Source: Planctomycetota bacterium (GTDB lineage: Bacteria; Planctomycetota; UBA8108; JACQVS01). Taken from it: a DNA stretch of 64,000 nucleotides. Under the pieces are notes generated by a model. It was given only the letters and a program-made list of their open reading frames with translations. It was not told where the DNA came from and made no database searches. A program made the position numbers and the translations under genes. Of this stretch, positions 8,690-56,838 are shown piece by piece (position 1 is the first letter of the stretch; each line of letters starts with the position of its first letter). Location: positions 6,916-70,915 of the forward strand of contig JACQVS010000106.1 of the NCBI GenBank assembly GCA_016209605.1, read 5' to 3'.

Positions 8690-8903
8690 GACACTTGAAA
8701 ATCCATCTCCACCTTTGAAAACAACGGGATCGACCCCCGGGCTAGATATTGCCAGCGCAGGGACTCCCCCTCAACCGTGTTGGGGTGAGTCTTCATGAGA
8801 AGTTTAAAACAGGATTCCCCCCCGATCAAATCGGCCGCTCGTTCCGCTTCATGAAGAACGCATTACGAGAATCTGAAATTTTACCGGCATTTTCAAGATA
8901 AGA

Positions 8904-39300: not shown

Positions 39301-39437
39301 GGATCCTCTCCTGTCACATTCCGTAACCCTTTTCTCTTAATCCAAAACCACTTATACCTTTTACTTGCTTATTTTACAGTTTACACCTTTTCTGGACTTT
39401 TGAGGAGGTAAAATCCGGCAAAAAGCCGGAGCTCACA

Positions 39438-41141: not shown

Positions 41142-41236
41142 GGGCGATTTCTCTTGAGCGGTTTAAGTTTCACAAGCAACTTCGAGTTGACGGAAACGCG
41201 GGCCATCTTCCTGCGGAACGCTGGCCAGATAAAAGT

Positions 41237-45848: not shown

Positions 45849-46031
45849 TCATTCCTCTCTGACCAGGGCGGATCATCCAATCCTGGGAATTCATTTCAAG
45901 TGTGACACACCGGAGGATTTTGTGCAAAAAAACCGTAAAGATATTCCCTCTCCGTTACCGGAATTTGCTCGATCTCTCTCGCTTCCCTATACTTCAAAGG
46001 GAATATCTACCATTCCAAAAATAGTACTGCA

Positions 46032-47315
46032 GTGACAACAAAACCGCTCAATCCAGAAATATCCTCGACGGAAGCTGGTGATGATCAAATTCGCACCACG
46101 GTCTTCGAATACGACAGCTTCACCATCAAGAAGTCGATGCATCGCAACATCACCATCCTGGAGGCTGCCGGGAGCTTCACTCCCCAGCTTGGAAAAGAGC
46201 TGGAGCGCCAGGCCGGCCAGGTCCGCAATAACCTCGGGCTGGATCTTTCCGGGGTTATCGGCATCCAGCCGACCATTCTTTCCAGCTTGCAGTACATCCA
46301 CAAAAAAATCACTTCGCGCAGCAAATGCTTCCTGCTCTGCAATCCTCCTGACAAGCTGCTGGACATCTTGAAACTCAGCAACTTGACCGGCCAGTTCCAG
46401 ATCACCAACGGCCTCAGGGATTTCGATGCGATACCAGCTTCTTCTCCGGCGCCGCCGCAGGAGGTTCCGGTGGTAAAACCAGTCGCGGAGCAGGGGATCA
46501 AAGGCTTCGAACCGGTCCAGAAAGAAATCACCCAGTTGACTCAGACGCTCAAACGGACCGAAAAACTGGAAAAGGGATTGGACTCCGCCTGCAAATGCGT
46601 GCGCAAGATTCTTCCGGCCCAGCCGCCCAAGGTCTCTGGTTACGAGTTCGCCTTCTTCTTCTCCCCCTGCGACAAGGTCGGCGGCGATTTCTTCGATTTC
46701 ACCTTTGGCGATGACAATTTTCTGGATATTGCCATTGGAGATGTCTCCGGCCACGGCCTGGATTCGGCCATCATCATGGCCATGGCCAAGAAGGTCCTTC
46801 GCCTCCGCGCCAAGGATTTTCCCAGCCGCAACAGCAAGGAAATTCTCTGCCAGGTTAACAGGGATCTTTATGAAGACCTGGGCCAGCGCATTTTCATCAC
46901 GGTTTTGTTCGTGCGTATGAACCTCCGTTCCGGCCTCGTGCATTTCGCTCGCGCCGGACATGAGCCACCCATCCGATTTCAGCCGGGCGCCAAGGAGGCT
47001 CCAGTTTTTTGCAACTCGACGGGAATCGCCATCGGCATGGATTCCGGACCGCGTTTCACTCCGATTCTTGAGGAAAGGAGCATCCAGCTCTTGCCTGGGG
47101 AAGGGCTTCTTCTGTACACCGATGGGATCGTTGAAAGCTTGAACTCGAGGCGTGACCTGTTCTCCCGCCAGCGCCTGGCGTACACCCTGGAACACCTGCA
47201 GGAGCCGGTCACCGCCCAGTCCGTCATCGAAACCATCGGCGCGGCGGTTGATCAGTTCTCGCAAGGATTCCCCCAGGAAGATGACATGACTGCTATTGCA
47301 ATTCTGAGGAAATGA
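46032..47315 (+). CDS. STAS-domain (anti-sigma-antagonist-like) fused to a PP2C-type serine phosphatase
   Basis: 427 aa; N-terminal STAS fold signature (…ITILEAAGSF…LDLSGVIGIQPTILSSL…FLLCNPPDKLLDILKLSNL). C-terminal PP2C motifs (GGDFFDF, GDVSGHG, TDGIVE). Divergent from the GAF-PP2C gene. Confidence 0.8.
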   Translation: MTTKPLNPEISSTEAGDDQIRTTVFEYDSFTIKKSMHRNITILEAAGSFTPQLGKELERQAGQVRNNLGLDLSGVIGIQPTILSSLQYIHKKITSRSKCFLLCNPPDKLLDILKLSNLTGQFQITNGLRDFDAIPASSPAPPQEVPVVKPVAEQGIKGFEPVQKEITQLTQTLKRTEKLEKGLDSACKCVRKILPAQPPKVSGYEFAFFFSPCDKVGGDFFDFTFGDDNFLDIAIGDVSGHGLDSAIIMAMAKKVLRLRAKDFPSRNSKEILCQVNRDLYEDLGQRIFITVLFVRMNLRSGLVHFARAGHEPPIRFQPGAKEAPVFCNSTGIAIGMDSGPRFTPILEERSIQLLPGEGLLLYTDGIVESLNSRRDLFSRQRLAYTLEHLQEPVTAQSVIETIGAAVDQFSQGFPQEDDMTAIAILRK

Positions 47316-47319
47316 TTCT

Positions 47320-50300
47320 GTGGCATTCAAAGGTGATGTTGGCCAACTTTCACTGCTGAACATTTATCAGGCGTTGAACCTGAACCGGCAGTCGGGGATT
47401 CTGGTCATCAGTTCCGGTAAGGTGAAGAGGAAAGTCCGTTTCCTGCCCAACGGTATCCGCCTGCTCACGAACTATCCTGGCGATTATAAAGGCCTCAAGC
47501 AAATCCTGGCCAAGCTCAAGATCCTCACCGAGTCGCAATTCCAGAACGTCATCTCGACGAAAAACGACGATAAGATGCCGCTGGGCGATTTTCTGTTCCA
47601 CCGGAGGATCATCGACCAGGATCTGATCGAGGGGCCGATCAGCAAGCACATTCTGGAGCTGATTTATGAAACCTTCTCCTGGAAGTCGGCAAAGTACGAA
47701 TTTCACGCCGGCGGAGATACGGATGACCTCGAACTGTTCAGTCTGGATGGTCCTGGAAAATCCCTGACCTTCAAAGTTCCAAACGTCCTCATGGAGGTGG
47801 CGCGGCGCGAGGATGAGTGGAACCGCATCCTGGCTGAAATTCCCAGTGAAAAAGAAATCTTCGTTCCGGTCAATCGCGGCGAATTTCTCAAACGCAAGGA
47901 ATACGACGCCGAAGCCCCAACGGAGTCGATCCTCGAAATCAAGCAATTGATTGACGGGGAGAGGTCGATCGAGTCGATCTGCCAGGAGACGACTCTTTCA
48001 AACTACGAGACCTACATCGTTCTCAAGTTGCTCATGGCGGAGGGCGAAATCCGCGCCTTCACCATCGAAGAGAAGAAAGAGCTCGCTGAAAAGCTCCGCA
48101 AGAAAGGGAAGCTCCGGGAGCTGATCGACGTCTACAATTATCTTCTCACCCTGGAACCCGATGATCTGCAGACGCGGCTGAGCCTGGTGAGCCTATTAGA
48201 AAAGAAGAAAGACTTCTGCTCCTTCCTGGTCGAGCACTACCAGTATCTGGCCGAGCATTCCATCGCCAGCGGCGAGTTGAGTCAGGCCAAAAATTATCTC
48301 GCGCGCATGCTGGAAATCGAACCCACCTCCCCCGCAGCCCAGGAGTGGCTGTTTGAGGTGCACTGCAACCTCGGGGAGAACCGAGAAGCCCTGGAAGCAG
48401 GAAGGCAAATCGTCGAATCTGCCAAGCAAGCCAAGGAGTATTCGCGCGGAACCTCGATCCTGGAAAGGATGATCAAGGTCTTCCCCGAGGATCCTTCCCT
48501 CTACCATGAAGCCGCCGACTTGTATCAGCTCAACGGCAACACGGCGGAGGCGGTTCGCTGCCTGAAGGCGGCCGCCTCCATTTACGAAAGCAGAAGGGAT
48601 CTCACTCGCCTTCGCAAAACCTACGAGAGGATCGCCGGCCTGGACTCATCCGAGGGCTCCACCCTGCGGAAAATCCTGGACCTGGAAAAGAAGAAGAACA
48701 AGCGGGGATTGAACACCTTTTCAGTGGCCTTCGCCGGTCTGGCCGCCGCTCTGATCGCGTTCACGGTCTACTGGATCACCATGGAAGTCTTCTGCCGCCG
48801 TGCCTTTGCGGCAGTGGACCGGGATGTCCAGACCCTCGCTGAAAACGGCCGTTTCAAAGACGCCCAGATGATCTTGAACTCCCTGGTCCGGGATTTCCCT
48901 TTGAGCGCCAAGCGCTGGGAAATCTCCAATCGCTTGAACTCCATTGCCACCGACCAGTGGAAAATGGTTTCCAAGATCCGCCAGGATGCCGAAAAAGAAA
49001 ACCTGCTCTTCGGCTCCTTCCTGGCGCAGGTCGAGAAGCTGCGCCGCGAGCGGAAATATGTGGAGGCTCTCAACCAGATTCAAGGGATCCGCCGGGTGGG
49101 CCTGTCCCCTGCCAACCTCAACATCCTGAAGAAAATCGAAACGGAAATCATCGCCATCTTCAACGAAGCGCAAGCGACCTTGAAAAAAGCCCAGGCGCTG
49201 ACCCAAAGCGGCAAGCTTCAGGAAGCACACCCCCTCTACATCCAGCTGCTCATGGAGTATTCGAGCACCCCGGTCGCGCAAAATTTGAAAATTCCCATGC
49301 AGCTGAAGACGGTCCCCGCCGGCGCGGAAGTGTTCGTCAACGAACAGATGGTTGGCAAGTCGCCATTGACTTTTTATTACCATCCCTTTGAAAAGTTCCG
49401 CCTGAAAATCGTCAAGGAGGGATTCCAGGAATTCCTTTGCGGAGATCCCGCCACGGAGCAACCATGCTTCGATTTCACCAAGGACTGGACCCTGTCGGCT
49501 TACCTGAAGCGCCTGCCGGCGTGGACGGTCAGCGCGCTCGATCCCTTGGGGGGCGCATACCTCTTCGATGGGAAGAACTTGTACTACTCCACTCAGAACG
49601 GCAAGGTCCTTGGTCATAGAATCGATTCGCGGGAAACCGCCTGGACCTATACCACCCCCAAGAACCTGCCGATCAAAAGCGAGCTGCGGCTCTGGAAGAA
49701 CTTGATTTATTTTGGAGCCATGGATGGCTTGTTCATTGCCATCGACAAGGACAGCGGCCAAAGCCGCCTGGAGCTGGTCCCCTTGAAGAACAGCCATCCC
49801 TACCGGCTGGTTCCCTCTCCGGCTTCCGAAAACGGCACCGTGGCGGTGGTCGCCAAGCCTTATGTCCTGGGCTTGAATTTGCAATCCGGGACCCTGGTGT
49901 GGACCTATCCCTGTGATAATCTGGTGGAAGCCCCGCCGCAGCCCTTGAAAGGCTCCATCGTGTGCGTCACCACGGCAGGGGAGATCCTGTTCCTGGACGA
50001 GGGCCTTGGCAGTCTCAAACAGGCGATCGACCTCAAAACTGCACTTACTTCGGCGGGAGTCGAGTACGGCGGCGCTTATTTCATCACGGACAGTCAAGGG
50101 ACCATATACCGGATCCAGCTGTCCACTGCAGAAATACAATGGAGCTTCCGGTCCGAAATCACCGGTCTCTCGCCTCCAAGCGTGAAGAACGATCAGGTCA
50201 TTGTCAGCTCGAGCCACGGCAATATCCTGGCTCTCGACATCAACAAGGGAAGTCGCAAGTGGGACGTCAAGGTGCAAGACAGTTTCCCCGCTCCCGGCAT

Positions 50301-50487
50301 CATTGCCAACAACCAGTACTATATCGGCTCTCAAAAAGGCGTATTGTTCTGTTTTGACATGCAAACTGGGCATTATTACTGGACCTTCCAGGCGGATGGG
50401 CCCTTTATCGCTCCACCCAGGCTCGAATCGGGGCTGGTCATCATCGGAAGCGAGAAAAATACGTTATACTCCTTTAGGGAGAAGTAA
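47320..50487 (+). CDS. Large multidomain protein: N-terminal DUF4388 (PATAN) domain, TPR repeats, one TM helix, PEGA domain, C-terminal PQQ/BamB-like beta-propeller repeats
   Basis: 1055 aa. N-terminus GDVGQLSLLNIYQALNLNRQSGILVI is characteristic of DUF4388. There is a TM helix at about residue 470 (FSVAFAGLAAALIAFTVYWI). PEGA-like VPAGAEVFVNEQMVGKSP…KIVKEGF. The C-terminal repeats have spaced W/G/Y patterns typical of PQQ propellers. Confidence 0.7.
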   Translation: MAFKGDVGQLSLLNIYQALNLNRQSGILVISSGKVKRKVRFLPNGIRLLTNYPGDYKGLKQILAKLKILTESQFQNVISTKNDDKMPLGDFLFHRRIIDQDLIEGPISKHILELIYETFSWKSAKYEFHAGGDTDDLELFSLDGPGKSLTFKVPNVLMEVARREDEWNRILAEIPSEKEIFVPVNRGEFLKRKEYDAEAPTESILEIKQLIDGERSIESICQETTLSNYETYIVLKLLMAEGEIRAFTIEEKKELAEKLRKKGKLRELIDVYNYLLTLEPDDLQTRLSLVSLLEKKKDFCSFLVEHYQYLAEHSIASGELSQAKNYLARMLEIEPTSPAAQEWLFEVHCNLGENREALEAGRQIVESAKQAKEYSRGTSILERMIKVFPEDPSLYHEAADLYQLNGNTAEAVRCLKAAASIYESRRDLTRLRKTYERIAGLDSSEGSTLRKILDLEKKKNKRGLNTFSVAFAGLAAALIAFTVYWITMEVFCRRAFAAVDRDVQTLAENGRFKDAQMILNSLVRDFPLSAKRWEISNRLNSIATDQWKMVSKIRQDAEKENLLFGSFLAQVEKLRRERKYVEALNQIQGIRRVGLSPANLNILKKIETEIIAIFNEAQATLKKAQALTQSGKLQEAHPLYIQLLMEYSSTPVAQNLKIPMQLKTVPAGAEVFVNEQMVGKSPLTFYYHPFEKFRLKIVKEGFQEFLCGDPATEQPCFDFTKDWTLSAYLKRLPAWTVSALDPLGGAYLFDGKNLYYSTQNGKVLGHRIDSRETAWTYTTPKNLPIKSELRLWKNLIYFGAMDGLFIAIDKDSGQSRLELVPLKNSHPYRLVPSPASENGTVAVVAKPYVLGLNLQSGTLVWTYPCDNLVEAPPQPLKGSIVCVTTAGEILFLDEGLGSLKQAIDLKTALTSAGVEYGGAYFITDSQGTIYRIQLSTAEIQWSFRSEITGLSPPSVKNDQVIVSSSHGNILALDINKGSRKWDVKVQDSFPAPGIIANNQYYIGSQKGVLFCFDMQTGHYYWTFQADGPFIAPPRLESGLVIIGSEKNTLYSFREK

Positions 50488-50490
50488 CCC

Positions 50491-51585
50491 GTGAGCTTAA
50501 TCATTTTCAATCCATTCAAGTTTTTCAAAGCGCGGCAGCTCAAAAAAGCACTCGCCGACTACGAAAAAAATCCTGGTCTGGAAGAAACCGTCAGCGTGGT
50601 TCAGCTTTTCCTCAAGTGCGGGCGATGCACCGAAGCATTCCAGCACGCCGAGGCCGGGCGGCAGAAATTTCCAGCTTCCAGCGAGCTGAACATTCTGCGC
50701 CAGCTGGCCTACAATAAACTGGGAGCTTTGGAGTGCAGGGCGCTGGCAAAGCAGATCGCCGCCCACCCCCGCCCTGAGACCATCGCCAAGGCTGTCGAGA
50801 TCTGGCGCTCGTGCGAGAACTACCGCCAATGTGAGCGACTGAGGCATAAATGGAGAGATCGTTTTCCCGACAGCTGGATTCTCCAGTTTGCCATTGGAAA
50901 ATACCTTTTCCATCGCTCCCTGGACAAAAAGATCAAAGATCAAAGCTCTGAAATAAAAGTCCAGTGCCTGGAGCAGCTGAAGAGAGCCGCAGCTCTCAAT
51001 CCAGACAACTATAAATCTTTGCTTTATCTGGCCACCATCCTTTCGGGCACGGGATCGGTCTCGGATGCTCTGAAAACTCTGGATCGTTTGCTGAAGCTGT
51101 ATCCTGGCGACCAGAGGGCGGTGGCGCTGCGAGAGCGGATCCAGCGGTCCCAAAGAGGCCGCCAGGCGCCCCCGGGGCCCTTTGCCGCCGAGGCCTTCAA
51201 GGCGCCGCGGGAGGCCAAAGCAGGCCAGGAAGGCTCTGACGACATCTTCAACGACTTGCGGGAATCACCTTCCATTTTCGCCGCCGTGATTGAAGAAGGC
51301 CCAAAGGACAATCTTCAGGCGCAATGTTATTTCGCCGAAAACAGCTGTTTCAACTTCGAACAAGGGGAGGCGGCCTTCCGAGACCTCATGCACGCCCTGC
51401 GAGCGGCTTCCAAGCGCATGGGCCTCGGGGAGCTGAAGACCTGCATCCTGGAAGGCGGATCCTGGCGGATCTTTCTGGGCAACCACCCTGTCAAATCACT
51501 GTTGATTTGCACCGACAAGAATTTTCAGGAGACCAGATTTGAAACGGCGATCCGCCGGATCATTCAAGAGAAGGTCCTGGCGTGA
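50491..51585 (+). CDS. TPR-repeat protein with a probable C-terminal Roadblock/LC7-like domain
   Basis: 364 aa; helical TPR-like N-terminal two thirds. The C-terminal ~100 aa have a Roadblock-like strand/helix pattern (…TCILEGGSWRIFLG…SLLICTDKN…). Moderate confidence. Confidence 0.5.
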   Translation: MSLIIFNPFKFFKARQLKKALADYEKNPGLEETVSVVQLFLKCGRCTEAFQHAEAGRQKFPASSELNILRQLAYNKLGALECRALAKQIAAHPRPETIAKAVEIWRSCENYRQCERLRHKWRDRFPDSWILQFAIGKYLFHRSLDKKIKDQSSEIKVQCLEQLKRAAALNPDNYKSLLYLATILSGTGSVSDALKTLDRLLKLYPGDQRAVALRERIQRSQRGRQAPPGPFAAEAFKAPREAKAGQEGSDDIFNDLRESPSIFAAVIEEGPKDNLQAQCYFAENSCFNFEQGEAAFRDLMHALRAASKRMGLGELKTCILEGGSWRIFLGNHPVKSLLICTDKNFQETRFETAIRRIIQEKVLA

Positions 51586-51610
51586 GGATTTTTGAAACTG
51601 GGAGCTTCAG

Positions 51611-51961
51611 ATGAAGAATATTCTGAAGGATTTGAATCAAGAAGCCGGCATCAAGGGGAGCATGGTGATAACGCCGGATGGCATCATGGTCGCCTCCGCC
51701 CTCGGAGCGAATTTCGAGGAGGATGTGGTCGCCGCCATTGTCTCTTCATTGCTCGTGGCCGTGAGGAGAACACTCGCTCGTATCAAGGCTCCCGATGGAC
51801 TCAATTCCTGCATCTTGTATGCCAATAACGGCAAGATCATGTTTTATGACATGGGCAAAGCCTTTCTGGTGGTCGTTGCCGATATGAATCTGAAGATGGA
51901 CAGCAGCATCATCGCCATCAAGAGCGCGATCTATCGCATCCAGAACCGGCGGGTCGCATGA
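51611..51961 (+). CDS. Roadblock/LC7-domain protein (MglB-like paralog)
   Basis: 116 aa; GIKGSMVITPDGIMVAS…FLVVVADMNL pattern typical of Roadblock/LC7. Confidence 0.8.
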   Translation: MKNILKDLNQEAGIKGSMVITPDGIMVASALGANFEEDVVAAIVSSLLVAVRRTLARIKAPDGLNSCILYANNGKIMFYDMGKAFLVVVADMNLKMDSSIIAIKSAIYRIQNRRVA

Positions 51962-52098
51962 AAGCAGGTGGAGGGGGGCTACCTAGGAGGAAGGCAGAAG
52001 GATCGAGGTCTAAAAATTCCGAAAACATTCAACGATTCGACGATTTGAAATCCAGCATGCTATCATCCACTGAGTAGTCATCCTGTTGGAGAAGAGGA

Positions 52099-53115
52099 AT
52101 GGTCCAAATCAATTTCGCTCTAAAAGAAGTCAATTGCAAAATCGTCTTCTATGGCCCCGGCCTTAGTGGCAAAACCACCAACTTGGAGGTCATTCACAGC
52201 AAAGCTCCCAAGTCCAATGTGGGAGAACTCACCTCCATTGCAACGGAAGGAGACCGGACTCTTTTCTTCGACTTTCTCCCTTTGAACCTTGGGCAGGTTG
52301 CAGGGATGACCACCAAATTCCAGATCTACACGGTCCCCGGCCAGGTCTACTACAACTCCACCAGAAAACTGGTGCTCCAGGGGGCTGACGGAATCGTTTT
52401 CGTCGCCGACTCGCGGCGGGGCAAGATTGAAGAAAACCTCGAGTCCTTCAAGAATCTTGAAGATAACATGAAGGAGTACGGGATGGATCTTCACACCATC
52501 CCCCTGGTTTTCCAGTACAACAAGCGGGATCTCCAGGACATTTACACCATTGAAGAGCTGGAAAAGGCTCTCAACCACTTTGGAGCGCCTTACTTCGAAG
52601 CCGTCGCCGTCAACGGCGATGGAGTCTTCCCGACGTTGAAAAAAGTCTCCAGCATGGTCCTGGAGAACCTGAACAAGCAGCAGAGCCCGACCAAGGTCAA
52701 GGCCAAAAAGCCTCAAGCCGCCAAGGAGCCGGAGCTGGTTCCGGCCGGCAATGTTTCGAAAGAAGAGGCTGCCGCAGCCGCTTCAGGACCGGTTCGGGGC
52801 CCCGCGCCTCGCGGCGCTCCGGTCAGACCGCAAGCGGCGGCGCCAGTCCGGCATCAAAGTCCGGGCGCCGTCGTGGTCAAGGAAAAGGTCACCAGCGCGC
52901 CCGGCGTCAAGCCGATAGAGCGGAAAGTTCCGGCCGGCGGCTCCGTGGTCAAGCGTAGGCCGATGGCCGAGCCCGTGGCGGCGCCAGCGATATCGGCTGC
53001 CGCCAAGGGAGGTTCCGGTGGAGGCAAGCCGATCTTCTGGATCGTCATTCTGGTGGTCCTCGCAGGCGCTGCAGCGGCCATTTTCTTCAGTGGAATTTGG
53101 GAAAAATTCATTTAG
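52099..53115 (+). CDS. mglA: MglA-family Ras-like GTPase with a ~140-aa C-terminal extension ending in a transmembrane helix
   Basis: The first ~195 aa are closely similar to Myxococcus MglA (INCKIVFYGPGLSGKTTNL, DRTLFFDFLPL, YTVPGQVYY, QYNKRDL). A Pro/Ala/Lys-rich linker follows, then IFWIVILVVLAGAAAAIFFSGIW at the extreme C-terminus. Confidence 0.9.
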   Translation: MVQINFALKEVNCKIVFYGPGLSGKTTNLEVIHSKAPKSNVGELTSIATEGDRTLFFDFLPLNLGQVAGMTTKFQIYTVPGQVYYNSTRKLVLQGADGIVFVADSRRGKIEENLESFKNLEDNMKEYGMDLHTIPLVFQYNKRDLQDIYTIEELEKALNHFGAPYFEAVAVNGDGVFPTLKKVSSMVLENLNKQQSPTKVKAKKPQAAKEPELVPAGNVSKEEAAAAASGPVRGPAPRGAPVRPQAAAPVRHQSPGAVVVKEKVTSAPGVKPIERKVPAGGSVVKRRPMAEPVAAPAISAAAKGGSGGGKPIFWIVILVVLAGAAAAIFFSGIWEKFI

Positions 53116-53227
53116 GAGTTCAAACCCCTGAGCCAATTCGGTGCCATCGGGTTCTGGCCGTTCGGCTGGATGAGACGGAAGGAGGTCAGCCATTATAACC
53201 GACAGTGATAAAATCCGTGAAAGCCGT

Positions 53228-53701
53228 TTGGTTTTCTACAAGGATGATATTGACAAGATCAATACCGTCCTCAAGGAGTTCTTGAGCCTTTCCGATTCAA
53301 AATGCAACATGCTGATTGACAAGGAAGGCCATATGGTGACCAAGGCCGGGCACACGGAGGACTTCGACATGCAAGCGGTGGCCGCCCTGGTCGCCGGCAG
53401 CTACGCGGCAACGAGGGAAATGGCCCGCCTGCTCGGAGAAGAGGAGTTTTCCGTGCTCTTCCATCAAGGCAAGAAGGACAACATCCAGTTGACCTTGATC
53501 GGAGACCGGACCATTCTCGCGACCGTCTTCGATGAACGGACCACCATCGGCATGGTCCGCCTCTATGCCAAAGAAGCCTCGGAAAAGCTCACCAAGATTT
53601 TCGCGGAAATCGGAACCCGCCGCGTCGATGGGGAAAACCTCCTCGGCTCGGAATTTTCGGAGTCCGCCCGGAATCAGCTGGACAGTTTCTTCGCCGAGTG
53701 A
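53228..53701 (+). CDS. mglB: MglB-like Roadblock/LC7 GTPase-activating protein
   Basis: 157 aa; closely parallels Myxococcus MglB (…EEFSVLFHQGKKDNIQLTLIGDRTILATVFDERTTIGMVRLYAKEASEKLTKIF…). Confidence 0.85.
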   Translation: MVFYKDDIDKINTVLKEFLSLSDSKCNMLIDKEGHMVTKAGHTEDFDMQAVAALVAGSYAATREMARLLGEEEFSVLFHQGKKDNIQLTLIGDRTILATVFDERTTIGMVRLYAKEASEKLTKIFAEIGTRRVDGENLLGSEFSESARNQLDSFFAE

Positions 53702-53765
53702 AATCGCCAAGATCTGAAGGGATCAAGGAATTATTACCCTTGCTCCCTTCCGTGCTTGCGGAGCC

Positions 53766-54371
53766 CTACTCCCCTTCCTTGGGCCTGTCGGTGTTCTCCC
53801 GAATGTCCAGGAGGAGCTGAACCAGGTCATTTTGCTGGTCTCCGACATCCGAGAGCAGGAACGCCAGCTCCCCCAGAAACTTGAATCCCAGATAAAGCGC
53901 TGCCCCCAAGATCGCCCAGCCGATCAAGCACAGCATCATCACGGCAATGCTTTCGATCGCCCCCTCGATTTTCAAGTAAACCGTGATCCCCATGCCCCCC
54001 AGCACCAGGAAAGCTTGCAGGTAGGCGAAAAAAAGGAGCAGCTCGGACAGCGCGCGCAATCTCAAAAAGCGGGATGGGGCATTGGGGTTGAAGTATCGGA
54101 CGGCGCTTTGTCCCGTGCCAAAAGTTTCGTAATAGGGCCGGGCCGAGCGCCGCCGGCGCCGGCTCATCTTTTCAATCAGCGCCAGCCGCTTCCAATCCTC
54201 CTCGAGACCCGCTTGCCTCGAGGCTTGCAGCTCTTCCAGCTGCTGGATCTCTTCCTGGGTCCGGAGAACGGTCTTGGCGCCGCAGCGCGGGCATTCGATC
54301 TTCTTGCCGAGGGATTCCTCGGGCGCTGAAAACTTGCTTTTGCAGTTCGGGCAGATGCTTTTTATGGCCAT
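53766..54371 (-). CDS. Membrane protein with an N-terminal MJ0042-type zinc ribbon
   Basis: 201 aa; CPNC…CPRC ribbon followed by three predicted TM helices. Confidence 0.55.
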   Translation of the reverse strand: MAIKSICPNCKSKFSAPEESLGKKIECPRCGAKTVLRTQEEIQQLEELQASRQAGLEEDWKRLALIEKMSRRRRRSARPYYETFGTGQSAVRYFNPNAPSRFLRLRALSELLLFFAYLQAFLVLGGMGITVYLKIEGAIESIAVMMLCLIGWAILGAALYLGFKFLGELAFLLSDVGDQQNDLVQLLLDIRENTDRPKEGE

Positions 54372-54435: not shown

Positions 54436-56838
54436 TTACTGGTTCGTGGCCGCTTCCTTTTCCTTCGCCTCCTCGGCGGGCTTGGCCTCTTCTTTCTTCT
54501 CCTCTTTCAGCTCTGCCTTTTCAGCGGCCGGCGCTTCCACGGCCGGCGGGGCGGTTTCAAAGAGAAGCTGGATTTGATCGGCCATGGAGCCCTGCGCGGC
54601 GGAATAGGCGAAATAGCTGGCCTGGCGCAGCTTGAGGTTGGTATCGTTCATTCCATCGAGGATGATCTTCAAGAGGGAGGCATCGGCGCCGGCCGGAGCT
54701 CCATCCAGGATTTTACCGACCGCCCACATCGCCGCCTCGCGGACTTCCGGAGAGTTTTCCTTGGATTCGAACACCTTGGCTATGGAGCCAACCATACCTT
54801 GAGCCTGCCCCCGGAGATTCCCCAGCGCTCCCAAGCAGGGGATGCGGATGGAGTCCGGACGGTTGACCAGCACCGGCTCCAGGGCTCCGGCCACCTTGTC
54901 GAGGGTGAACCGGGTGGACCCGGCCGTCAGCCGCTCCAGGCTCCTGGCCGCGAGGCTGGCCAGGGCGATATCCTTCGCTCTGGCCGCATCCTCTTTCTCG
55001 AAGAGGGGCGCGAGGACGGTTTCCTTGAAATTCACGGCATCGACATCTTCGGGGATGACCAGCACCTTGTTCTCCTCGCTTTGGTAACGCTCTGATTCCT
55101 TCTGCAGATGGGCGGGATCCACCACCACCACGATCGGAACGGAGGCGGTCCGCTGGTTGCGCCGGAGCTGGCTCACCAGGAAATTGATGGGGGCGGCCTG
55201 TCGTTGAGCGGATGAGGAGGCGCCGAGAGCGGTGTCGACCACGATCAGGTCGGGCGGAATTTGCGAGGCGCGGACGATCCCCATTTCCGCGTTGGGCGAA
55301 TTGGAGAGCGACTCCAGGTTCAGCTCCTGGAACAGGCCGTCAAAGCGGCGGACGTGCTCGGGATTGCCCATCATCTTGTGCACCGTCCGGATGCCGCTGT
55401 TGACGATGGCTTCGGCCAGAGCGTTGACCACGGCCTCTCCTGTTTTTCCGGCGGCTTCATCGGCATTCCAATCGGCCAGGACCATGGCGGCATGAACCCG
55501 CACGGTCTTGGAGTTGCTCTCCCGGAGGGCCGCTAGCAGCGCTGCGGGCATAGCCCCGCGCCGCTGCGTTTGCCCGGCGACTTCCAGCAGCTTCTCGGCG
55601 ACCTCGTTCATGCGGTCATCCAAGGCCTGGCCGATCGCCCCGAAAAGGAAATCTTTGGGCGCGGCCAGGAGCCGCGGCTGGCGGAGGTAATCCATCGTGG
55701 CCTTCTGGGCATTGAGGGCGGACTTGACATCCTTCTGGCCGCTTTCCGGCGCCCCTTCCTTGGAGTAGAATTCCAGCCCCATTTGATATTCCACGAGCTG
55801 CAGGGCGTCATTGCACAGGGCCATCTCGCGGGCCGCCCGGAAGCCCGGATCCAGCTTGAGGGCCTGAACCAGCATCTGCTCCGCCATGCGCTCGTTGACC
55901 TGAAAGTCCGCCACCGCCTCCTCCACCACCTGATTGTCCTTCAAGTGATAGATGGTCGGCTGGTAGTACGGCTTGTTGAAGTCGTTCTTGTGAGGATTGA
56001 GATACAAGAAGCGGGCGATGTCGAGGTAGTAGAGCTTGGCATCCTTCAAGACGACTTCCGAAGTCTGGCCGCGGCCCAGAATCGCGATCAGGGACTCCTT
56101 GGCCACCGCTTTGACGCCGGCATCCTTGTCGGTCTGATAAAGCAGGGCCAGAGGGGCGACCGAAAATTCGTGCCGCATCGGCTTGGCCCCCAGAAGCCGG
56201 GCGACCGAGTTCCGCACCAGTGGCTCCGGATGGCCGGCGGCGGCGGCCAGCACCGGAACGGCATCGACGCCGATGTAGTGGGCGATCCACAATTCCGCGC
56301 GGGTGCGCGTCTCGATTTCCGAGTCCCCCAGCTTGGCAATGAGCTGCGGCACCAGATTGCGCCCGAACTCGGTGGCATGCTGGATCATCAGACGGAGCTG
56401 ATCCTGCGGCGAGGCGGCGAAAGTCTCATCGATCGCCGCCTTGATCTTCTCGGGATCATGGATGCGGCCCTTGATCCCGGTGCGCCGGGCATCGAGCAGT
56501 TTCAGCCCGGCTCCGGAAATGCGCGGATCCTTGTCCCGCACCAGGCGCAGGATTTCCGCCGCCATCACCTGGTCCATGGCGGTGGCAATAGCTTCTCCGG
56601 TGGGATCCAGGGCGAACACCTTTTCCAGAAGGGCCAGGGCCTCGGCGGCATTGCCTTCCTTGTACTTGGTGATCCCCTCATTGAGCAGGGCGGGAATGTC
56701 GGCCTCCCCCTCCGCTTGAGAGCGCTTACCGGAGAGCCAGGAGAGAGCGGTCAACACGACCAGAACAACTGCAAAAGTTGCACTCCAGGTTGAAAATTTT
56801 CGCAATGATTTACCGGCCATTTTTACTTGCTCCATCAC
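54436..56838 (-). CDS. HEAT/Armadillo-repeat protein with an N-terminal membrane anchor and an internal receiver-like (probably pseudo-receiver) domain
   Basis: 800 aa; N-terminal TM (ATFAVVLVVLTALSWL), repeated helical HEAT-like units (PEPLVRNSVARLLG, SPEVREAAMWAVGKIL). A central LIVVDTALG…VPIVVVVD segment resembles a CheY-like fold. C-terminal K/E-rich tail. Confidence 0.6.
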   Translation of the reverse strand: MMEQVKMAGKSLRKFSTWSATFAVVLVVLTALSWLSGKRSQAEGEADIPALLNEGITKYKEGNAAEALALLEKVFALDPTGEAIATAMDQVMAAEILRLVRDKDPRISGAGLKLLDARRTGIKGRIHDPEKIKAAIDETFAASPQDQLRLMIQHATEFGRNLVPQLIAKLGDSEIETRTRAELWIAHYIGVDAVPVLAAAAGHPEPLVRNSVARLLGAKPMRHEFSVAPLALLYQTDKDAGVKAVAKESLIAILGRGQTSEVVLKDAKLYYLDIARFLYLNPHKNDFNKPYYQPTIYHLKDNQVVEEAVADFQVNERMAEQMLVQALKLDPGFRAAREMALCNDALQLVEYQMGLEFYSKEGAPESGQKDVKSALNAQKATMDYLRQPRLLAAPKDFLFGAIGQALDDRMNEVAEKLLEVAGQTQRRGAMPAALLAALRESNSKTVRVHAAMVLADWNADEAAGKTGEAVVNALAEAIVNSGIRTVHKMMGNPEHVRRFDGLFQELNLESLSNSPNAEMGIVRASQIPPDLIVVDTALGASSSAQRQAAPINFLVSQLRRNQRTASVPIVVVVDPAHLQKESERYQSEENKVLVIPEDVDAVNFKETVLAPLFEKEDAARAKDIALASLAARSLERLTAGSTRFTLDKVAGALEPVLVNRPDSIRIPCLGALGNLRGQAQGMVGSIAKVFESKENSPEVREAAMWAVGKILDGAPAGADASLLKIILDGMNDTNLKLRQASYFAYSAAQGSMADQIQLLFETAPPAVEAPAAEKAELKEEKKEEAKPAEEAKEKEAATNQ

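What the first reader, a model, noticed from the sequence alone, without database searches (positions are those of the whole stretch)
47320..53701. MglA/MglB Ras-GTPase polarity module with extra Roadblock paralogs and a giant PATAN-TPR-PEGA-PQQ membrane protein
Five co-directional plus-strand genes sit together with small gaps: a 1055-aa DUF4388(PATAN)-TPR-TM-PEGA-beta-propeller protein, a TPR protein with a Roadblock-like C-terminus, a Roadblock protein, an unmistakable MglA homologue, and an MglB homologue. MglA/MglB are the polarity GTPase/GAP pair known from Myxococcus and Bdellovibrio, where they interact with TPR proteins and type IV pilus machinery. Here the pair is embedded with two extra Roadblock-domain proteins and a large membrane-spanning sensor-like scaffold. 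I do not recognise this architecture as described. Two PP2C phosphatases lie immediately upstream, and tandem PilB/GspE ATPases about 5 kb upstream. That placement suggests one regulatory neighbourhood controlling a surface machine.
Basis: partly seen in the sequence, partly recalled or inferred. Interest (0 to 1): 0.8.

Follow-up and report, generated by a model that had tools for sequence, protein, structure and literature searches.

The report
Membrane-anchored MglA switch operon, Planctomycetota
This is a real, strongly conserved operon of uncultured Planctomycetota in which the Ras-like polarity GTPase MglA carries a flexible tail and a membrane anchor, like a eukaryotic Ras or Rab protein. 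It sits with its inactivator MglB, a second pair of Roadblock proteins and a giant membrane-spanning scaffold, an arrangement I could not find described anywhere.

Summary
**Observation:** confirmed. Five plus-strand ORFs lie exactly at the stated coordinates, and profile searches support every domain call:
- a PATAN-TPR-TM-PEGA-BamB-like propeller giant;
- a TPR protein with a Roadblock-like C-terminus;
- a Roadblock protein;
- MglA (57% identical to M. xanthus MglA, with R53, T54, T78 and Q82 in place);
- MglB.

**Conservation:** the cluster recurs in the same order in about 20 loci, all from Planctomycetota metagenome-assembled genomes. A co-directional PP2C phosphatase lies 4 nt upstream.

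- MglA is 338 aa. A Pro/Ala-rich linker of about 115 aa and a C-terminal transmembrane helix follow the GTPase domain. 112 of 115 long homologues, and all 13 complete syntenic genes, have this tail anchor.
- The reference survey of prokaryotic small GTPases used a cut-off of 240 aa, so this clade was excluded.
- The two extra Roadblock domains are each other's closest relatives, not MglB copies. Their genes often overlap, which suggests a heterodimer.

**Limits:**
- PATAN-MglA/MglB gene linkage was already known.
- PilB/PilC adjacency holds only in the nearest relatives.
- One marine lineage lacks the giant protein and the PP2C.
- Function is inferred, not shown.

**Verdict:** a new variant of a known kind, of moderately high interest.

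The parts
46032..47315 (+). SpoIIE-type PP2C phosphatase (427 aa) with a weak STAS-like N-terminal region. It ends 4 nt before the giant gene and is probably the first gene of the operon.
   Evidence: Pfam SpoIIE E=4.7e-38. STAS E=4.6e-4, below the cut-off. A homologue lies directly upstream of the giant gene in most loci.
47320..50487 (+). Giant bitopic scaffold protein (1055 aa). Cytoplasmic PATAN and TPR domains, one transmembrane helix, then periplasmic helical repeats, a PEGA domain and an 8-bladed BamB-like propeller.
   Evidence: Pfam. AF2 mean pLDDT 86.4 with these domain boundaries. BamB fold match. At least 66 full-length representatives at 50% clustering.
47329..47823 (+). PATAN (DUF4388/PatA_N) domain, residues 4-168, with an alpha-helical insertion.
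   Evidence: PF14332 E=3e-14, 53.6 bits against a cut-off of 25. 165 residues match a 122-position profile. AF2 places helices 57-119 between the strands.
48064..48690 (+). Cytoplasmic TPR array, residues about 249-457.
   Evidence: TPR_14, TPR_19 and TPR_9 above cut-off. Weak match to the N-terminal TPRs of SgmX, E=1.9e-4. AF2 helices.
48718..48792 (+). Single predicted transmembrane helix of the giant protein, residues about 467-491. KKKNKR precedes it and an invariant Glu489 lies near its outer end.
   Evidence: This is the only stretch of the protein with Kyte-Doolittle 19-residue windows of 1.6 or more. E489 is invariant in alignments A1 and A5.
49291..50478 (+). Periplasmic PEGA domain (residues 658-707) and 8-bladed propeller (residues 724-1053).
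   Evidence: PEGA and PQQ_2 Pfam hits. Foldseek top hits are BamB.
50491..51585 (+). TPR-Roadblock fusion protein (364 aa). TPR-like helical domain at residues 8-222, a linker, then a Roadblock-like C-terminal domain at about 250-364.
   Evidence: TPR Pfam hits. AF2 is confident for residues 8-222 only. The C-terminus matches the Rbl116 family (hhalign probability 90%, E=1.5e-6) and PDB Roadblock chains. A homologue is present in every locus.
51611..51961 (+). Stand-alone Roadblock/LC7 protein (116 aa), the predicted partner of the TPR-Roadblock fusion.
   Evidence: Robl_LC7 E=1.6e-11. Profile against PDB: 7yh1 at E=1e-10, then dynein LC7, CvnB5 and LAMTOR2, with no chain named MglB. In most of the more distant loci its start overlaps the stop of the upstream gene.
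52099..52683 (+). MglA GTPase domain (residues 1-195). Group-1 type, with R53, T54, T78-V-P-G-Q82 and NKRD.
   Evidence: PDB 5ymx at E=5.5e-70. 57% identity over 190 ungapped residues. Motifs read directly from the sequence.
52684..53031 (+). MglA Pro/Ala-rich low-complexity linker (residues about 196-311). It contains an 'SPGVKPIERK' motif and a basic stretch further upstream.
   Evidence: Sequences. The motif is found in 84 of 115 long homologues, mostly the nearer clade.
53032..53100 (+). MglA C-terminal transmembrane helix (residues about 312-334), followed by only 4 residues. This is a tail anchor.
   Evidence: Kyte-Doolittle maximum 2.86. 112 of 115 long homologues, and 13 of 13 complete syntenic genes, have such a segment. 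It carries a conserved AAGAGxY(F/Y)SG-like pattern.
53228..53701 (+). MglB (157 aa). A Roadblock-fold GTPase-activating protein that keeps the C-terminal helix.
   Evidence: PDB 6izw_B at E=5.7e-34 over its full length. 38% identity. 72-82% identical among the loci.
44064..45848 (-). GAF-PP2C phosphatase, transcribed divergently from the operon. A conserved accessory gene in many loci.
   Evidence: Pfam GAF_2 and SpoIIE. Present upstream in L004, L008, L009, L012-L016, L018, L019 and L031.
53766..54371 (-). Zinc-ribbon protein with two predicted transmembrane helices (201 aa), convergent with mglB. A conserved neighbour and a possible component.
   Evidence: Cys pairs at C7/C10 and C27/C30, with a sub-threshold Zn_ribbon_4 hit. 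Two hydrophobic segments. Homologues lie next to mglB in many loci, but only 5 of 9 keep the zinc ribbon.
54436..56838 (-). HEAT-repeat protein (800 aa) with an N-terminal hydrophobic segment, upstream of the zinc-ribbon gene on the same strand. A conserved neighbour.
   Evidence: HEAT_2 E=5e-13. Kyte-Doolittle windows at residues 14-38. Conserved downstream in most loci.
38062..42925 (-). PilC/GspF and two tandem PilB/GspE-type ATPases with MshEN (c-di-GMP-binding type) N-termini. A candidate target machine, linked only in the nearest relatives.
   Evidence: Pfam T2SSF, T2SSE and MshEN. NCBIfam PilB scores 652 and 632 bits against a cut-off of 676. The c-di-GMP motif scores 50.7 bits (above the cut-off of 38) in one ATPase and 32.7 (below) in the other. 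Synteny only in L001/L003, L002, L004, L006 and L019.

Best explanation
The locus is a vertically inherited operon of uncultured Planctomycetota. It encodes a membrane-tethered version of the MglA/MglB small-GTPase switch.

**Shown**
- MglA is a Group-1 enzyme with its intrinsic arginine finger and catalytic glutamine.
- It is followed by a flexible linker of about 115 aa and a C-terminal transmembrane helix.
- MglB is a full-length orthologue of the M. xanthus GTPase-activating protein, including the C-terminal helix.
- Two further Roadblock domains (the C-terminus of the TPR protein and the 116-aa protein) form a separate, mutually related pair. Their genes are frequently translationally coupled.
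- The giant protein is bitopic, with PATAN and TPR domains in the cytoplasm and a PEGA domain plus a BamB-like propeller in the periplasm.
- A PP2C phosphatase gene leads the operon.

**Inferred**
- MglA cycles between GTP and GDP states while confined to the cytoplasmic membrane.
- The MglB dimer switches it off.
- The TPR-Roadblock/Roadblock heterodimer acts as a second platform for MglA or MglB: an exchange factor, a recruiter or an MglB antagonist. This resembles what MglC or RomR do in Myxococcus, or Ragulator for Rag GTPases.
- MglA-GTP engages the TPR array of the giant scaffold, as MglA-GTP engages the TPR protein SgmX in Myxococcus.
- The scaffold's PATAN domain then acts on a PilB/PilC-type motor, as PATAN domains do in Synechocystis. 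Its periplasmic propeller fixes the complex to an envelope landmark.
- The PP2C phosphatases feed in a phosphorylation signal.

The net effect would be to choose where on the envelope a pilus-like machine is assembled or activated.
For: - **Identity of all parts:**
- **Catalytic motifs:** R53/T54, TVPGQ82 and NKRD are in register with M. xanthus MglA, with no gaps.
- **Tail anchor:** found in 112 of 115 long homologues and in 13 of 13 syntenic genes. In most homologues a basic cluster lies on the cytoplasmic side of the helix.
- **Conserved order** PP2C, giant, TPR-Roadblock, Roadblock, MglA, MglB:
  - in 13 loci found from the giant protein, although that protein has diverged to 22-28% identity;
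  - in 7 of 8 loci when starting from MglA instead (window).
- **Overlapping stop/start codons** pair TPR-Roadblock with Roadblock. In L030 they also pair MglA with MglB.
- **The extra Roadblock domains** are each other's nearest relatives.
- **From the literature:**
  - the PATAN domain alone binds PilB1 and localises to the membrane, and PatA-type regulators also bind the PilC N-terminus (bioRxiv 10.1101/2021.06.11.447907);
  - MglA-GTP works through the TPR protein SgmX to stimulate type IV pili (PMC7519303 and PMC7668184, listed);
  - PATAN-Mgl gene linkage is recurrent (PMC4316618).
- **In this genome and its nearest relatives,** two MshEN-PilB ATPases and a PilC lie 4-9 kb upstream.
Against: - No experiment exists, and I found no cultured organism carrying the module. 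Every interaction is inferred.
- PilB/PilC adjacency is lost in the more distant loci. Their upstream regions hold metabolic genes, alginate-export-like porin genes and other unrelated genes.
- The abundant marine lineage L030 keeps TPR-Roadblock, Roadblock, MglA and MglB but has neither the giant protein nor a PP2C next to them. The giant protein is therefore not indispensable in cis.
- The flanking genes for the HEAT protein, the two-helix membrane protein and LarC are conserved too. Part of the synteny may reflect generally stable gene order in this lineage rather than functional coupling.
- The Roadblock fold of the TPR protein's C-terminus rests on profile matches only. The AF2 model of that region was uninformative (pLDDT below 50).
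- Transmembrane helices were predicted by hydropathy only.
Confidence: 0.5

Rival explanations
1. The same membrane-tethered MglA switch, but its output is general cell polarity or the cell cycle rather than a type IV pilus motor. It could mark the budding pole, the holdfast, the flagellar pole or another envelope site in bacteria that divide asymmetrically. In this reading the giant scaffold is a landmark, not a motor regulator.
For: - The conserved core has no pilus gene. PilB/PilC linkage is restricted to the nearest clade.
- The conserved neighbours are a HEAT-repeat protein and a small membrane protein.
- In L002, flagellar genes (FlhA, FlhF, a MinD/ParA-type ATPase, a sigma factor) lie 6-10 kb downstream.
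- L030 works without the PATAN giant nearby.
- MglA homologues control polarity beyond pili in Myxococcus (established knowledge; one search lists the papers).
Against: - The only experimentally shown partners of a PATAN domain are pilus motor components.
- MglA effectors with TPR arrays known so far act on pili (SgmX in Myxococcus).
- There is no positive evidence for any alternative target.
Confidence: 0.27
2. An outside-in signalling system, analogous to the actinobacterial conservon (membrane sensor CvnA, Roadblock CvnB, CvnC, MglA-like CvnD). The periplasmic PEGA/propeller part of the giant protein would sense an envelope or surface cue and pass it through the PATAN/TPR domains and the Roadblock pair to set the nucleotide state of MglA. 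MglA would then be the output, and the PP2C phosphatases would act as modulators.
For: - The architecture of one membrane-spanning protein, Roadblock proteins and an MglA-family GTPase in one operon mirrors the conservon (PMC4316618).
- The profile of the 116-aa family retrieves CvnB5 (3leq, E=0.003).
- Two sensory-type phosphatases, GAF-PP2C and STAS-like-PP2C, are conserved at the locus.
Against: - The giant protein has no kinase, cyclase or other enzymatic transmitter domain.
- BamB-like propellers are typically scaffolds rather than ligand sensors.
- MglA here is Group 1, with an intrinsic arginine finger and a cognate MglB, not the conservon Group 2.
- The tail anchor already explains membrane localisation without a receptor.
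Confidence: 0.18
3. The genes are merely neighbours in a lineage with stable gene order and share no function. The long MglA 'tail' is an annotation or read-through artefact.
For: - Unrelated flanking genes such as LarC are also syntenic.
- Cluster GC content is 8 points below the flanks in the window.
Against: - The order is kept while the giant protein diverges to about 22% identity and the upstream context changes completely.
- Gaps of 3-4 nt and overlapping stop/start codons occur within the cluster.
- The tail is a single open frame ending in a conserved hydrophobic segment in more than 110 homologues from independent assemblies.
Confidence: 0.03

Closest known systems
Myxococcus xanthus / Thermus thermophilus MglA-MglB polarity switch (Group 1 MglA of Wuichet & Sogaard-Andersen 2014)
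   Same: - The GTPase domain is 57% identical and ungapped. It has the intrinsic Arg finger (R53), T54, the TVPGQ G3 motif and NKRD.
- The adjacent MglB is 38% identical over its full length, including the C-terminal helix.
   Different: - The gene order is mglA then mglB.
- MglA is 308-357 aa, with a low-complexity linker and a C-terminal transmembrane helix, rather than a soluble protein of about 195 aa.
- No RomR or RomX gene lies in the cluster.
- The module is embedded with a TPR-Roadblock fusion, a second Roadblock protein, a PATAN giant and a PP2C.
MglC (M. xanthus Roadblock paralogue that bridges MglB and RomR) and the RomY co-GAP
   Same: An extra Roadblock-fold protein accompanies MglA/MglB and could modulate MglB or its localisation.
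   Different: - The 116-aa family and the TPR protein's C-terminus do not retrieve any chain named MglB or MglC in profile searches of the PDB.
- They are only marginally similar to the local MglB.
- They come as a gene-coupled pair, and one of them is fused to TPRs.
- In Myxococcus, mglC is not in the mglBA operon (my own knowledge).
PATAN-domain regulators (PatA, PixE/PixG, TaxP1 of cyanobacteria; SgnC of M. xanthus)
   Same: - A PATAN domain with the alpha-helical insertion.
- Known gene linkage of PATAN proteins to MglA/MglB, and domain co-occurrence of PATAN with the MshEN/GspE_N domain of PilB-type ATPases.
- In Synechocystis the PATAN domain is the output that binds PilB1, and the full-length regulators also bind PilC.
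   Different: - Here there is no receiver domain.
- PATAN is the N-terminus of a 1055-aa bitopic protein with TPRs and a periplasmic PEGA domain plus 8-bladed propeller.
SgmX (M. xanthus) and Bd2492 (Bdellovibrio): TPR effectors of MglA-GTP acting on type IV pili
   Same: - TPR arrays are encoded with, or act with, MglA.
- The giant protein's TPR region gives a weak hit to the SgmX model (E=1.9e-4).
   Different: - The score is far below the family cut-off (19.9 against 1800 bits).
- SgmX is a soluble all-TPR protein.
- No orthology is shown.
Actinobacterial conservon (CvnA-D)
   Same: An operon that combines a membrane protein, a Roadblock protein and an MglA-family GTPase.
   Different: - The conservon GTPase is Group 2 and lacks the Arg finger.
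- Its membrane component is a histidine kinase.
- It has no MglB-type GAP with a C-terminal helix, no PATAN or TPR domains and no tail anchor.
Eukaryotic membrane-anchored small GTPases (Ras/Rab hypervariable region plus prenyl anchor; tail-anchored Miro) and Roadblock/longin platforms (Ragulator LAMTOR2/3, Mon1-Ccz1)
   Same: - The layout is a G domain, a flexible variable linker and a C-terminal membrane anchor.
- The GTPase is regulated by dimeric Roadblock-fold platforms. LAMTOR2 is retrieved weakly by the 116-aa profile (E about 0.1).
   Different: - The anchor is a transmembrane helix, not a lipid.
- The resemblance is analogy only; no specific relationship beyond the shared ancient folds is shown.

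Membership tests
MglA, Group 1 (Wuichet & Sogaard-Andersen 2014) | Ras-like G domain with close similarity to characterised MglA | tested here: met
   PDB 5ymx, 6h17 and 3t12 at E=5.5e-70 to 2.9e-66. 57% identity over 190 ungapped residues.
MglA, Group 1 (Wuichet & Sogaard-Andersen 2014) | Intrinsic arginine finger next to the conserved switch-I threonine (R53, T54) | tested here: met
   The sequence reads ...EGDRTLFFDFLP... with R53 and T54 in register with M. xanthus. The definition comes from PMC4316618.
MglA, Group 1 (Wuichet & Sogaard-Andersen 2014) | G3 motif TVPGQ instead of DxxGQ | tested here: met
   Y77-T78-V-P-G-Q82.
MglA, Group 1 (Wuichet & Sogaard-Andersen 2014) | Gene coupled to an mglB homologue | tested here: met
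   mglB lies 112 nt downstream in the window. It is adjacent in all loci, and overlaps mglA in L030.
MglA, Group 1 (Wuichet & Sogaard-Andersen 2014) | Small, single-domain soluble protein (the survey's operational limit was 240 aa) | tested here: not met
   The protein is 338 aa. Homologues are 308-357 aa, with a linker and a C-terminal hydrophobic helix. The cut-off is stated in PMC4316618. This limit was a survey criterion rather than a biochemical definition, so I still class the G domain as Group 1.
MglA, Group 1 (Wuichet & Sogaard-Andersen 2014) | GTP binding, MglB-stimulated hydrolysis, polar localisation | not testable with these tools
   Needs biochemistry and cell biology.
MglB | Roadblock/LC7 fold, about 160 aa, similar to characterised MglB over its full length including the C-terminal helix | tested here: met
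   Robl_LC7 E=2e-11. 6izw_B at E=5.7e-34, residues 1-157 aligned to 5-159. 38% identity. The NCBIfam Thermus-type MglB equivalog gives E=4.9e-25 but only 88.5 bits, below its cut-off of 200.
MglB | GAP activity on the cognate MglA | not testable with these tools
   Inferred from orthology and gene coupling only.
PATAN / DUF4388 (PatA_N) | Match to PF14332 above the gathering score, with the alpha-helical insertion described by Makarova et al. 2006 | tested here: met
   53.6 bits against a cut-off of 25. Residues 4-168 cover the whole 122-position profile. The AF2 model shows strands interrupted by helices 57-119. Precomputed PatA_N hits exist on homologues.
PATAN / DUF4388 (PatA_N) | Binding to the PilB/PilC pilus motor (shown for Synechocystis PixE) | not testable with these tools
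   Only gene proximity to PilB/PilC in this genome and its nearest relatives.
Roadblock/LC7 (C-terminal domain of the 364-aa TPR protein) | Significant similarity to Roadblock profiles or structures | tested here: met
   There is no Pfam hit for the single sequence. The family profile gives hhalign probability 90%, E=1.5e-6 against the 116-aa family. In the PDB its top hits are all Roadblock chains, and 7f8m (E=6.8e-4) is covered over its whole domain.
Roadblock/LC7 (C-terminal domain of the 364-aa TPR protein) | Predicted alpha-beta-alpha Roadblock fold | tested here: inconclusive
   AF2 with a 3-sequence alignment gave pLDDT below 50 for residues 223-364.
MglC (M. xanthus) | Closer relationship to the MglB/MglC lineage than to generic Roadblock proteins | tested here: not met
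   The profile of the 116-aa family retrieves 7yh1, 7f8m, dynein LC7, CvnB5 and LAMTOR2, but no chain named MglB or MglC at E up to 10. hhalign against the local MglB family gives probability 2.4%. I could not compare directly with an MglC sequence.
SgmX (TPR effector of MglA-GTP) | Match to NF052243 at its curated score | tested here: not met
   19.9 bits against a cut-off of 1800. Only generic TPR similarity at residues 254-471.
Actinobacterial conservon | CvnA histidine kinase, CvnB, CvnC and a Group-2 CvnD lacking the Arg finger | tested here: not met
   There is no histidine kinase in the cluster. MglA here has the Group-1 Arg finger.
Type IVa pilus assembly ATPase PilB (neighbouring genes) | Match to TIGR02538 at its curated score | tested here: inconclusive
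   651.6 and 632.1 bits against a cut-off of 675.65. GspE scores are nearly equal: 613 and 615 bits against 630. Both proteins carry MshEN domains.

The most novel reading that the evidence does not exclude
Planctomycetota may have independently built a eukaryote-style membrane-identity switch. It would consist of:
- a Ras-superfamily GTPase permanently tethered to the membrane by a hypervariable-type linker and a C-terminal anchor;
- one Roadblock dimer (MglB) that turns it off;
- a second, heterodimeric Roadblock platform (TPR-Roadblock plus Roadblock) that turns it on or positions it, in the manner of Ragulator or Mon1-Ccz1;
- a transmembrane scaffold that couples it to the cell envelope.

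Such a system would pattern the cytoplasmic membrane and its invaginations in two dimensions. The Myxococcus paradigm instead shuttles a soluble protein between poles.
Probability: 0.18. Interest if true: 0.85.

Novelty: new variant of a known kind. Interest (0 to 1): 0.62.

Why it matters
**A gap in the paradigm.** MglA/MglB is the paradigm for Ras-like spatial regulation in bacteria, and all mechanistic models assume a soluble GTPase that relocates through the cytoplasm. A whole clade of MglA proteins bound to the membrane by a tail anchor changes the physics of the switch, because diffusion becomes two-dimensional and membrane residence no longer depends on effectors. It also parallels the layout of eukaryotic Ras and Rab proteins.

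**Why the clade went unseen.**
- The reference census counted only proteins of up to 240 aa.
- The carriers are uncultured.
- Automatic annotation calls these proteins 'GTPase' or 'SRP receptor beta subunit'.

**Candidate polarity parts for Planctomycetota.** These bacteria bud or divide asymmetrically, mostly without FtsZ (my own knowledge), and their polarity determinants are largely unknown. The operon offers a concrete list:
- a TPR-Roadblock/Roadblock pair that could be a bacterial counterpart of heterodimeric Roadblock GTPase platforms;
- a bitopic PATAN scaffold that could link a cytoplasmic G-protein switch to the periplasm and to a pilus motor.

**Testability.** Each part can be tested in vitro with recombinant proteins, even without a cultured host.

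Tried and rejected
1. **Exact-sequence look-up of the window's MglA.** Nothing was on record. The source was identified instead through the homology search: NCBI MBI4584265.1, a Planctomycetota MAG, on a 138,761-bp contig.
2. **AF2 of the TPR-Roadblock protein.** Only three sequences were admissible. The C-terminal domain came out at pLDDT below 50 and was uninformative. The Roadblock call therefore rests on profiles.
3. **Foldseek against afdb50,** intended to find named organisms with the giant architecture. The library was unavailable.
4. **The zinc-ribbon membrane protein next to mglB as a GltJ-like co-GAP that recruits MglB** (PMC11135422). This idea is weakened: only 5 of 9 homologues keep the zinc ribbon, and the conserved part is the two-helix membrane domain plus a C-terminal amphipathic segment. 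I keep it as an unproven lead.
5. **The 116-aa protein as MglC.** Rejected on profile evidence.
6. **A horizontally acquired island,** suggested by GC of 0.55 against 0.63 in the flanks. Rejected, because the synteny is lineage-wide and the GC dip is small or absent in other loci.
7. **Promoter and terminator scans.** Terminator-like sites were no more frequent than in shuffled sequence (10 found, 11.3 expected). Promoter-like sites were above expectation (10 found, 2.8 expected), but the sigma-70 consensus is unvalidated for this phylum, so I drew no conclusion.
8. **Rfam and tRNA scans of the window.** Nothing found.
9. **Literature searches** for MglA or Ras-like GTPases in Planctomycetes, and for a tail-anchored MglA. 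No relevant paper turned up. The library lacks most subscription journals, so this absence is not proof.
10. **Pilus genes upstream in distant loci.** None found.

Full report
**1. What is in the sequence**

- 47320-50487, 1055 aa
- 50491-51585, 364 aa
- 51611-51961, 116 aa
- 52099-53115, 338 aa
- 53228-53701, 157 aa

The gaps between them are 3, 25, 137 and 112 nt.

A sixth co-directional gene, a SpoIIE-type PP2C phosphatase at 46032-47315, ends 4 nt before the first ORF. The other neighbours are:
- a divergent GAF-PP2C (44064-45848, -);
- signal peptidase I (43290-44030, -);
- two tandem PilB/GspE-type ATPases with MshEN N-termini (41237-42925 and 39438-41141, -);
- PilC/GspF (38062-39300, -);
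- RNase R.

Downstream, on the minus strand, lie a 201-aa zinc-ribbon protein with two hydrophobic helices and an 800-aa HEAT-repeat protein. LarC and an RHS protein follow. The rest of the window is housekeeping: SecA, AlaRS, the plsX-fabHDGF cluster, SerA and KdtA. So this is core chromosome. The window has no tRNA gene and no Rfam family hit.

**2. Identity of the parts**

*Giant protein*
- Pfam gives PATAN/DUF4388 (residues 4-168), TPRs (about 255-440), PEGA (663-705) and PQQ_2.
- An AF2 model built on 15 homologues is confident (mean pLDDT 86.4). It resolves:
  - a PATAN alpha/beta domain with a helical insertion;
  - a TPR array at 249-457;
  - a disordered basic segment;
  - one long helix containing the only hydrophobic stretch, about 467-491;
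  - helical repeats at 512-654;
  - a PEGA sandwich;
  - an 8-bladed propeller at 724-1053.
- The propeller's best structural matches are BamB (E about 1e-19, target TM-score about 0.8).
- There is no signal peptide, and KKKNKR precedes the helix. The PATAN-TPR half should therefore be cytoplasmic and the PEGA-propeller half periplasmic. This topology is inferred.

*MglA*
- The G domain matches M. xanthus and T. thermophilus MglA structures at E=5.5e-70 to 2.9e-66.
- It is 57% identical to M. xanthus MglA over 190 ungapped residues.
- R53, T54, T78-V-P-G-Q82 and NKRD are in register. These are the marks of Group-1 MglA as defined in PMC4316618.

*MglB*
- It aligns end to end with M. xanthus MglB (E=5.7e-34, 38% identity). 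The alignment includes the C-terminal helix.

*The 116-aa protein*
- It is a canonical Roadblock/LC7 protein.

*The 364-aa protein*
- It has a confident TPR-like N-terminal half.
- Its C-terminal domain is invisible to single-sequence Pfam.
- A profile of 13 homologues matches the 116-aa family (hhalign probability 90%, E=1.5e-6). In the PDB it retrieves Roadblock chains as its top hits (best E=6.8e-4, covering the whole domain).
The AF2 model of that part was uninformative because only three sequences were admissible.

**3.

MglA is 338 aa, not about 195.
- After the G domain comes a Pro/Ala-rich linker of about 115 aa.
- Then comes a strongly hydrophobic segment, residues 312-334 (Kyte-Doolittle maximum 2.86), with only four residues after it.

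This is not an artefact of one assembly.
- 115 of the 120 best database homologues are at least 290 aa long.
- 112 of those 115 have a hydrophobic 19-residue window that ends within 20 residues of the C-terminus. The other three miss the thresholds only marginally.
- All 13 complete mglA genes in the syntenic loci show the same layout:
  - a variable low-complexity linker (Pro, Ala, Gly, Gln);
  - a basic cluster before the helix, in most of them;
  - a helix with a recurring AAGAGxY(F/Y)SG-like pattern;
  - a short tail.

This is the layout of a tail-anchored membrane protein with the G domain in the cytoplasm. The topology is inferred from hydropathy and charge.

The reference census of prokaryotic small GTPases counted only proteins of up to 240 aa. 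It does not list Planctomycetes among the Group-1 phyla, and no planctomycete genus name appears in its supplement. That explains why this clade is not in the standard classification.

**4. Conservation**

*Search starting from the giant protein.* A degenerate-pattern scan of one genome per species (185,579 species) used an alignment of giant-protein homologues. It returned 27 loci. All were labelled Planctomycetota, Planctomycetia or Phycisphaerales MAGs, except one 'uncultured bacterium' (L013) and one labelled 'Proteobacteria' (L017).
- Every locus with a full-length homologue and enough flank has the same order: PP2C, giant, a TPR gene of 1.0-1.3 kb, the 116-aa Roadblock, long MglA, MglB. 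These are L001/L003, L002, L007-L015, L017 and L018.
- In the loci found by this scan the giant protein has diverged to 22-28% identity to the window protein. The Roadblock protein stays at 35-54%, the MglA G domain at about 73-76% and MglB at 72-82%.

*Search starting from MglA.* Seven of eight loci again show PP2C plus giant upstream (the window). The exception is L030, an abundant marine lineage seen in 229 index blocks.
- It keeps TPR-Roadblock, Roadblock, MglA and MglB, plus the small membrane protein, HEAT and LarC.
- It has no giant protein and no PP2C there.

The minimal core is therefore four genes, and the giant protein with PP2C is a very frequent accessory.

*Other points*
- In most of the more distant loci the stop of the TPR gene overlaps the start of the Roadblock gene. 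In L030, mglA also overlaps mglB. This suggests two translationally coupled pairs.
- An exhaustive profile search of 1.84 billion cluster representatives found at least 66 full-length, single-stretch matches of 1012-1101 aa among the top 150. The giant family is large.
- PilB/PilB/PilC adjacency is confined to the nearest clade: L001/L003, L002, L004, L006 and L019. Upstream regions of distant loci hold unrelated genes.
- No named cultured organism appeared among the hits examined.

**5. Relationships among the three Roadblock domains**

The TPR protein's C-terminus and the 116-aa family are each other's closest relatives (probability 90%). Either one against the local MglB family gives only 2-14%.

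The 116-aa profile retrieves several kinds of chain, but none named MglB or MglC:
- an Asgard archaeal Roadblock protein (7yh1) and a further Robl_LC7 chain (7f8m);
- dynein LC7;
- CvnB5;
- weakly, LAMTOR2.

'Extra MglB paralogues' is therefore not the best description. They form a distinct Roadblock pair, and one member is fused to TPRs.

**6. How it most likely works**

*Shown:* the domain identities, the catalytic motifs, the conserved tail, the conserved operon and the gene coupling.

*Inferred:*
- MglA is tethered to the cytoplasmic membrane and cycles there.
- The MglB dimer is its GTPase-activating protein. It may also help nucleotide exchange through its C-terminal helix, as now proposed for Myxococcus (PMC13408092).
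- The TPR-Roadblock/Roadblock pair forms a heterodimeric platform. It could load, position or protect MglA, or sequester MglB.
- MglA-GTP engages the TPR array of the giant scaffold. The precedents are the TPR protein SgmX in Myxococcus (PMC7519303, PMC7668184) and Bd2492 in Bdellovibrio (the latter from my own knowledge of PMC3983030).
- The PATAN domain then acts on a PilB/PilC motor. The precedent is Synechocystis: its PatA-type regulators bind PilB1 and the PilC N-terminus, and the PATAN domain alone binds PilB1, localises to the membrane and suffices for output. PATAN also co-occurs with MshEN/GspE_N domains.
- The periplasmic PEGA-propeller fixes the assembly to an envelope structure.
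- The STAS-like-PP2C and GAF-PP2C proteins provide phospho-regulatory input.

I give this composite about 0.5. The identity and membrane-tethered-switch part is much more secure than the pilus output.

*Rivals:*
- a general polarity or budding landmark that does not act on pili (0.27);
- conservon-like outside-in signalling (0.18);
- mere neighbours (0.03).

**7. Comparison with what is known, and novelty**

*Known:*
- MglA/MglB.
- Roadblock GAPs.
- MglC as an additional Roadblock regulator.
- TPR effectors.
- Occasional PATAN-Mgl gene linkage (Makarova 2006; PMC4316618).

*Not found in the searchable literature* (the library lacks most subscription journals):
- any account of MglA in Planctomycetes;
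- a tail-anchored MglA;
- a TPR-Roadblock fusion paired with a Roadblock gene;
- this bitopic PATAN-TPR-PEGA-propeller protein.

I class the locus as a new variant of a known kind. The G domain passes every sequence test for Group-1 MglA. It fails only the 'small soluble single-domain' criterion, which was a survey cut-off.

**8. Caveats**
- All carriers seen are MAGs.
- Transmembrane helices were predicted by hydropathy only.
- One Roadblock assignment rests on profiles alone.
- Part of the extended synteny (HEAT, LarC) may reflect stable gene order rather than function.
- The giant protein is dispensable in cis in one lineage.
- No interaction or activity has been measured.

Noticed in passing
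window 53766-54371 (-) and 54436-56838 (-); homologues in L001, L002, L008, L009, L013-L015, L018, L030-L032, L034: A small membrane protein (two predicted transmembrane helices and a conserved C-terminal 'KFLGELAWLLADLGDHQxDxRNLLxDxR' segment) and a HEAT-repeat protein form a minus-strand pair. The pair is convergent with mglB in most loci. In the window the small protein starts with a C4 zinc ribbon, reminiscent of the GltJ zinc ribbon that binds MglB in Myxococcus. Only 5 of 9 homologues keep that ribbon.
   Followed up: partly
L030:8671-11454 (TARA marine scaffold): A very abundant marine lineage (its MglA is indexed in 229 blocks of the collection) has only the four-gene core TPR-Roadblock, Roadblock, tail-anchored MglA and MglB. 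Stop and start codons overlap within each pair. There is no PATAN giant and no PP2C upstream. I do not know whether the giant protein is encoded elsewhere in that genome.
   Followed up: partly
window 46000-54000: The cluster has clearly lower GC (0.54-0.57) than its flanks (0.60-0.69). In 10 of the 12 other loci the dip is much smaller (0.004-0.04), and in the remaining two it is absent. That argues against recent horizontal transfer, but the strong dip in this genome remains unexplained.
   Followed up: partly
window 39438-41141 (-) and 41237-42925 (-): Two tandem PilB/GspE-type ATPases are about 44% identical to each other. Both have N-terminal MshEN domains, and one scores above the cut-off for the MshE-type c-di-GMP-binding motif. 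Both fall just below the PilB and GspE equivalog cut-offs, so the machine they power (type IV pilus or type II secretion) is unresolved. No PilM/N/O/Q or pilin genes were identified among the ORFs screened in the window.
   Followed up: partly
window 52684-53031; homologues P0002-P0062, L002, L003, L007, L010, L011: A short conserved motif, (S/T)xPGVKPIERKxP, sits in the otherwise variable MglA linker in the nearer clade (84 of 115 long homologues match a loose pattern). It is absent from the more distant clade. It could be a docking motif.
   Followed up: partly
window 48784-48786 (Glu489 of the giant protein): An invariant glutamate lies near the outer end of the giant protein's single transmembrane helix in all 17 aligned homologues. 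The MglA transmembrane helix also carries a conserved small-residue/aromatic pattern. An intramembrane contact between the two is conceivable but untested.
   Followed up: no
L021-L029: The same phylum encodes shorter or differently built PATAN-TPR paralogues that match only the N-terminal 250-590 residues of the giant protein. No mglA or mglB gene is detected within the flanks held.
   Followed up: no
L002:17194-21020: In one closed 9.18-Mb genome, flagellar genes (FlhA, FlhF, a MinD/ParA-type ATPase, a sigma-70-family factor) lie 6-10 kb downstream of the cluster.
   Followed up: no
window 28163-29221 (+): An apparent fusion of a Sua5/YciO/YrdC domain (t6A synthesis family) with a low-molecular-weight phosphotyrosine phosphatase domain in one 352-aa ORF.
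   Followed up: no
window 7049-10049: A XerD-like tyrosine recombinase, a protein with two FHA domains and an AAA_14/DUF4143 ATPase sit in a stretch where GC drops to 0.56.
   Followed up: no
window 58646-62275 (+): A 1209-aa RHS-repeat protein, possibly a polymorphic toxin, lies a few kb downstream of the cluster.
   Followed up: no
L001 and L002 (called MglB genes at 11213-11578 and 11259-11624): Public gene calls give MglB as 121 aa. Homology to the 157-aa window protein (82% identity) extends about 108 nt further upstream, so these MglB genes are probably annotated with a start that is too late. The window gene itself starts at TTG.
   Followed up: partly
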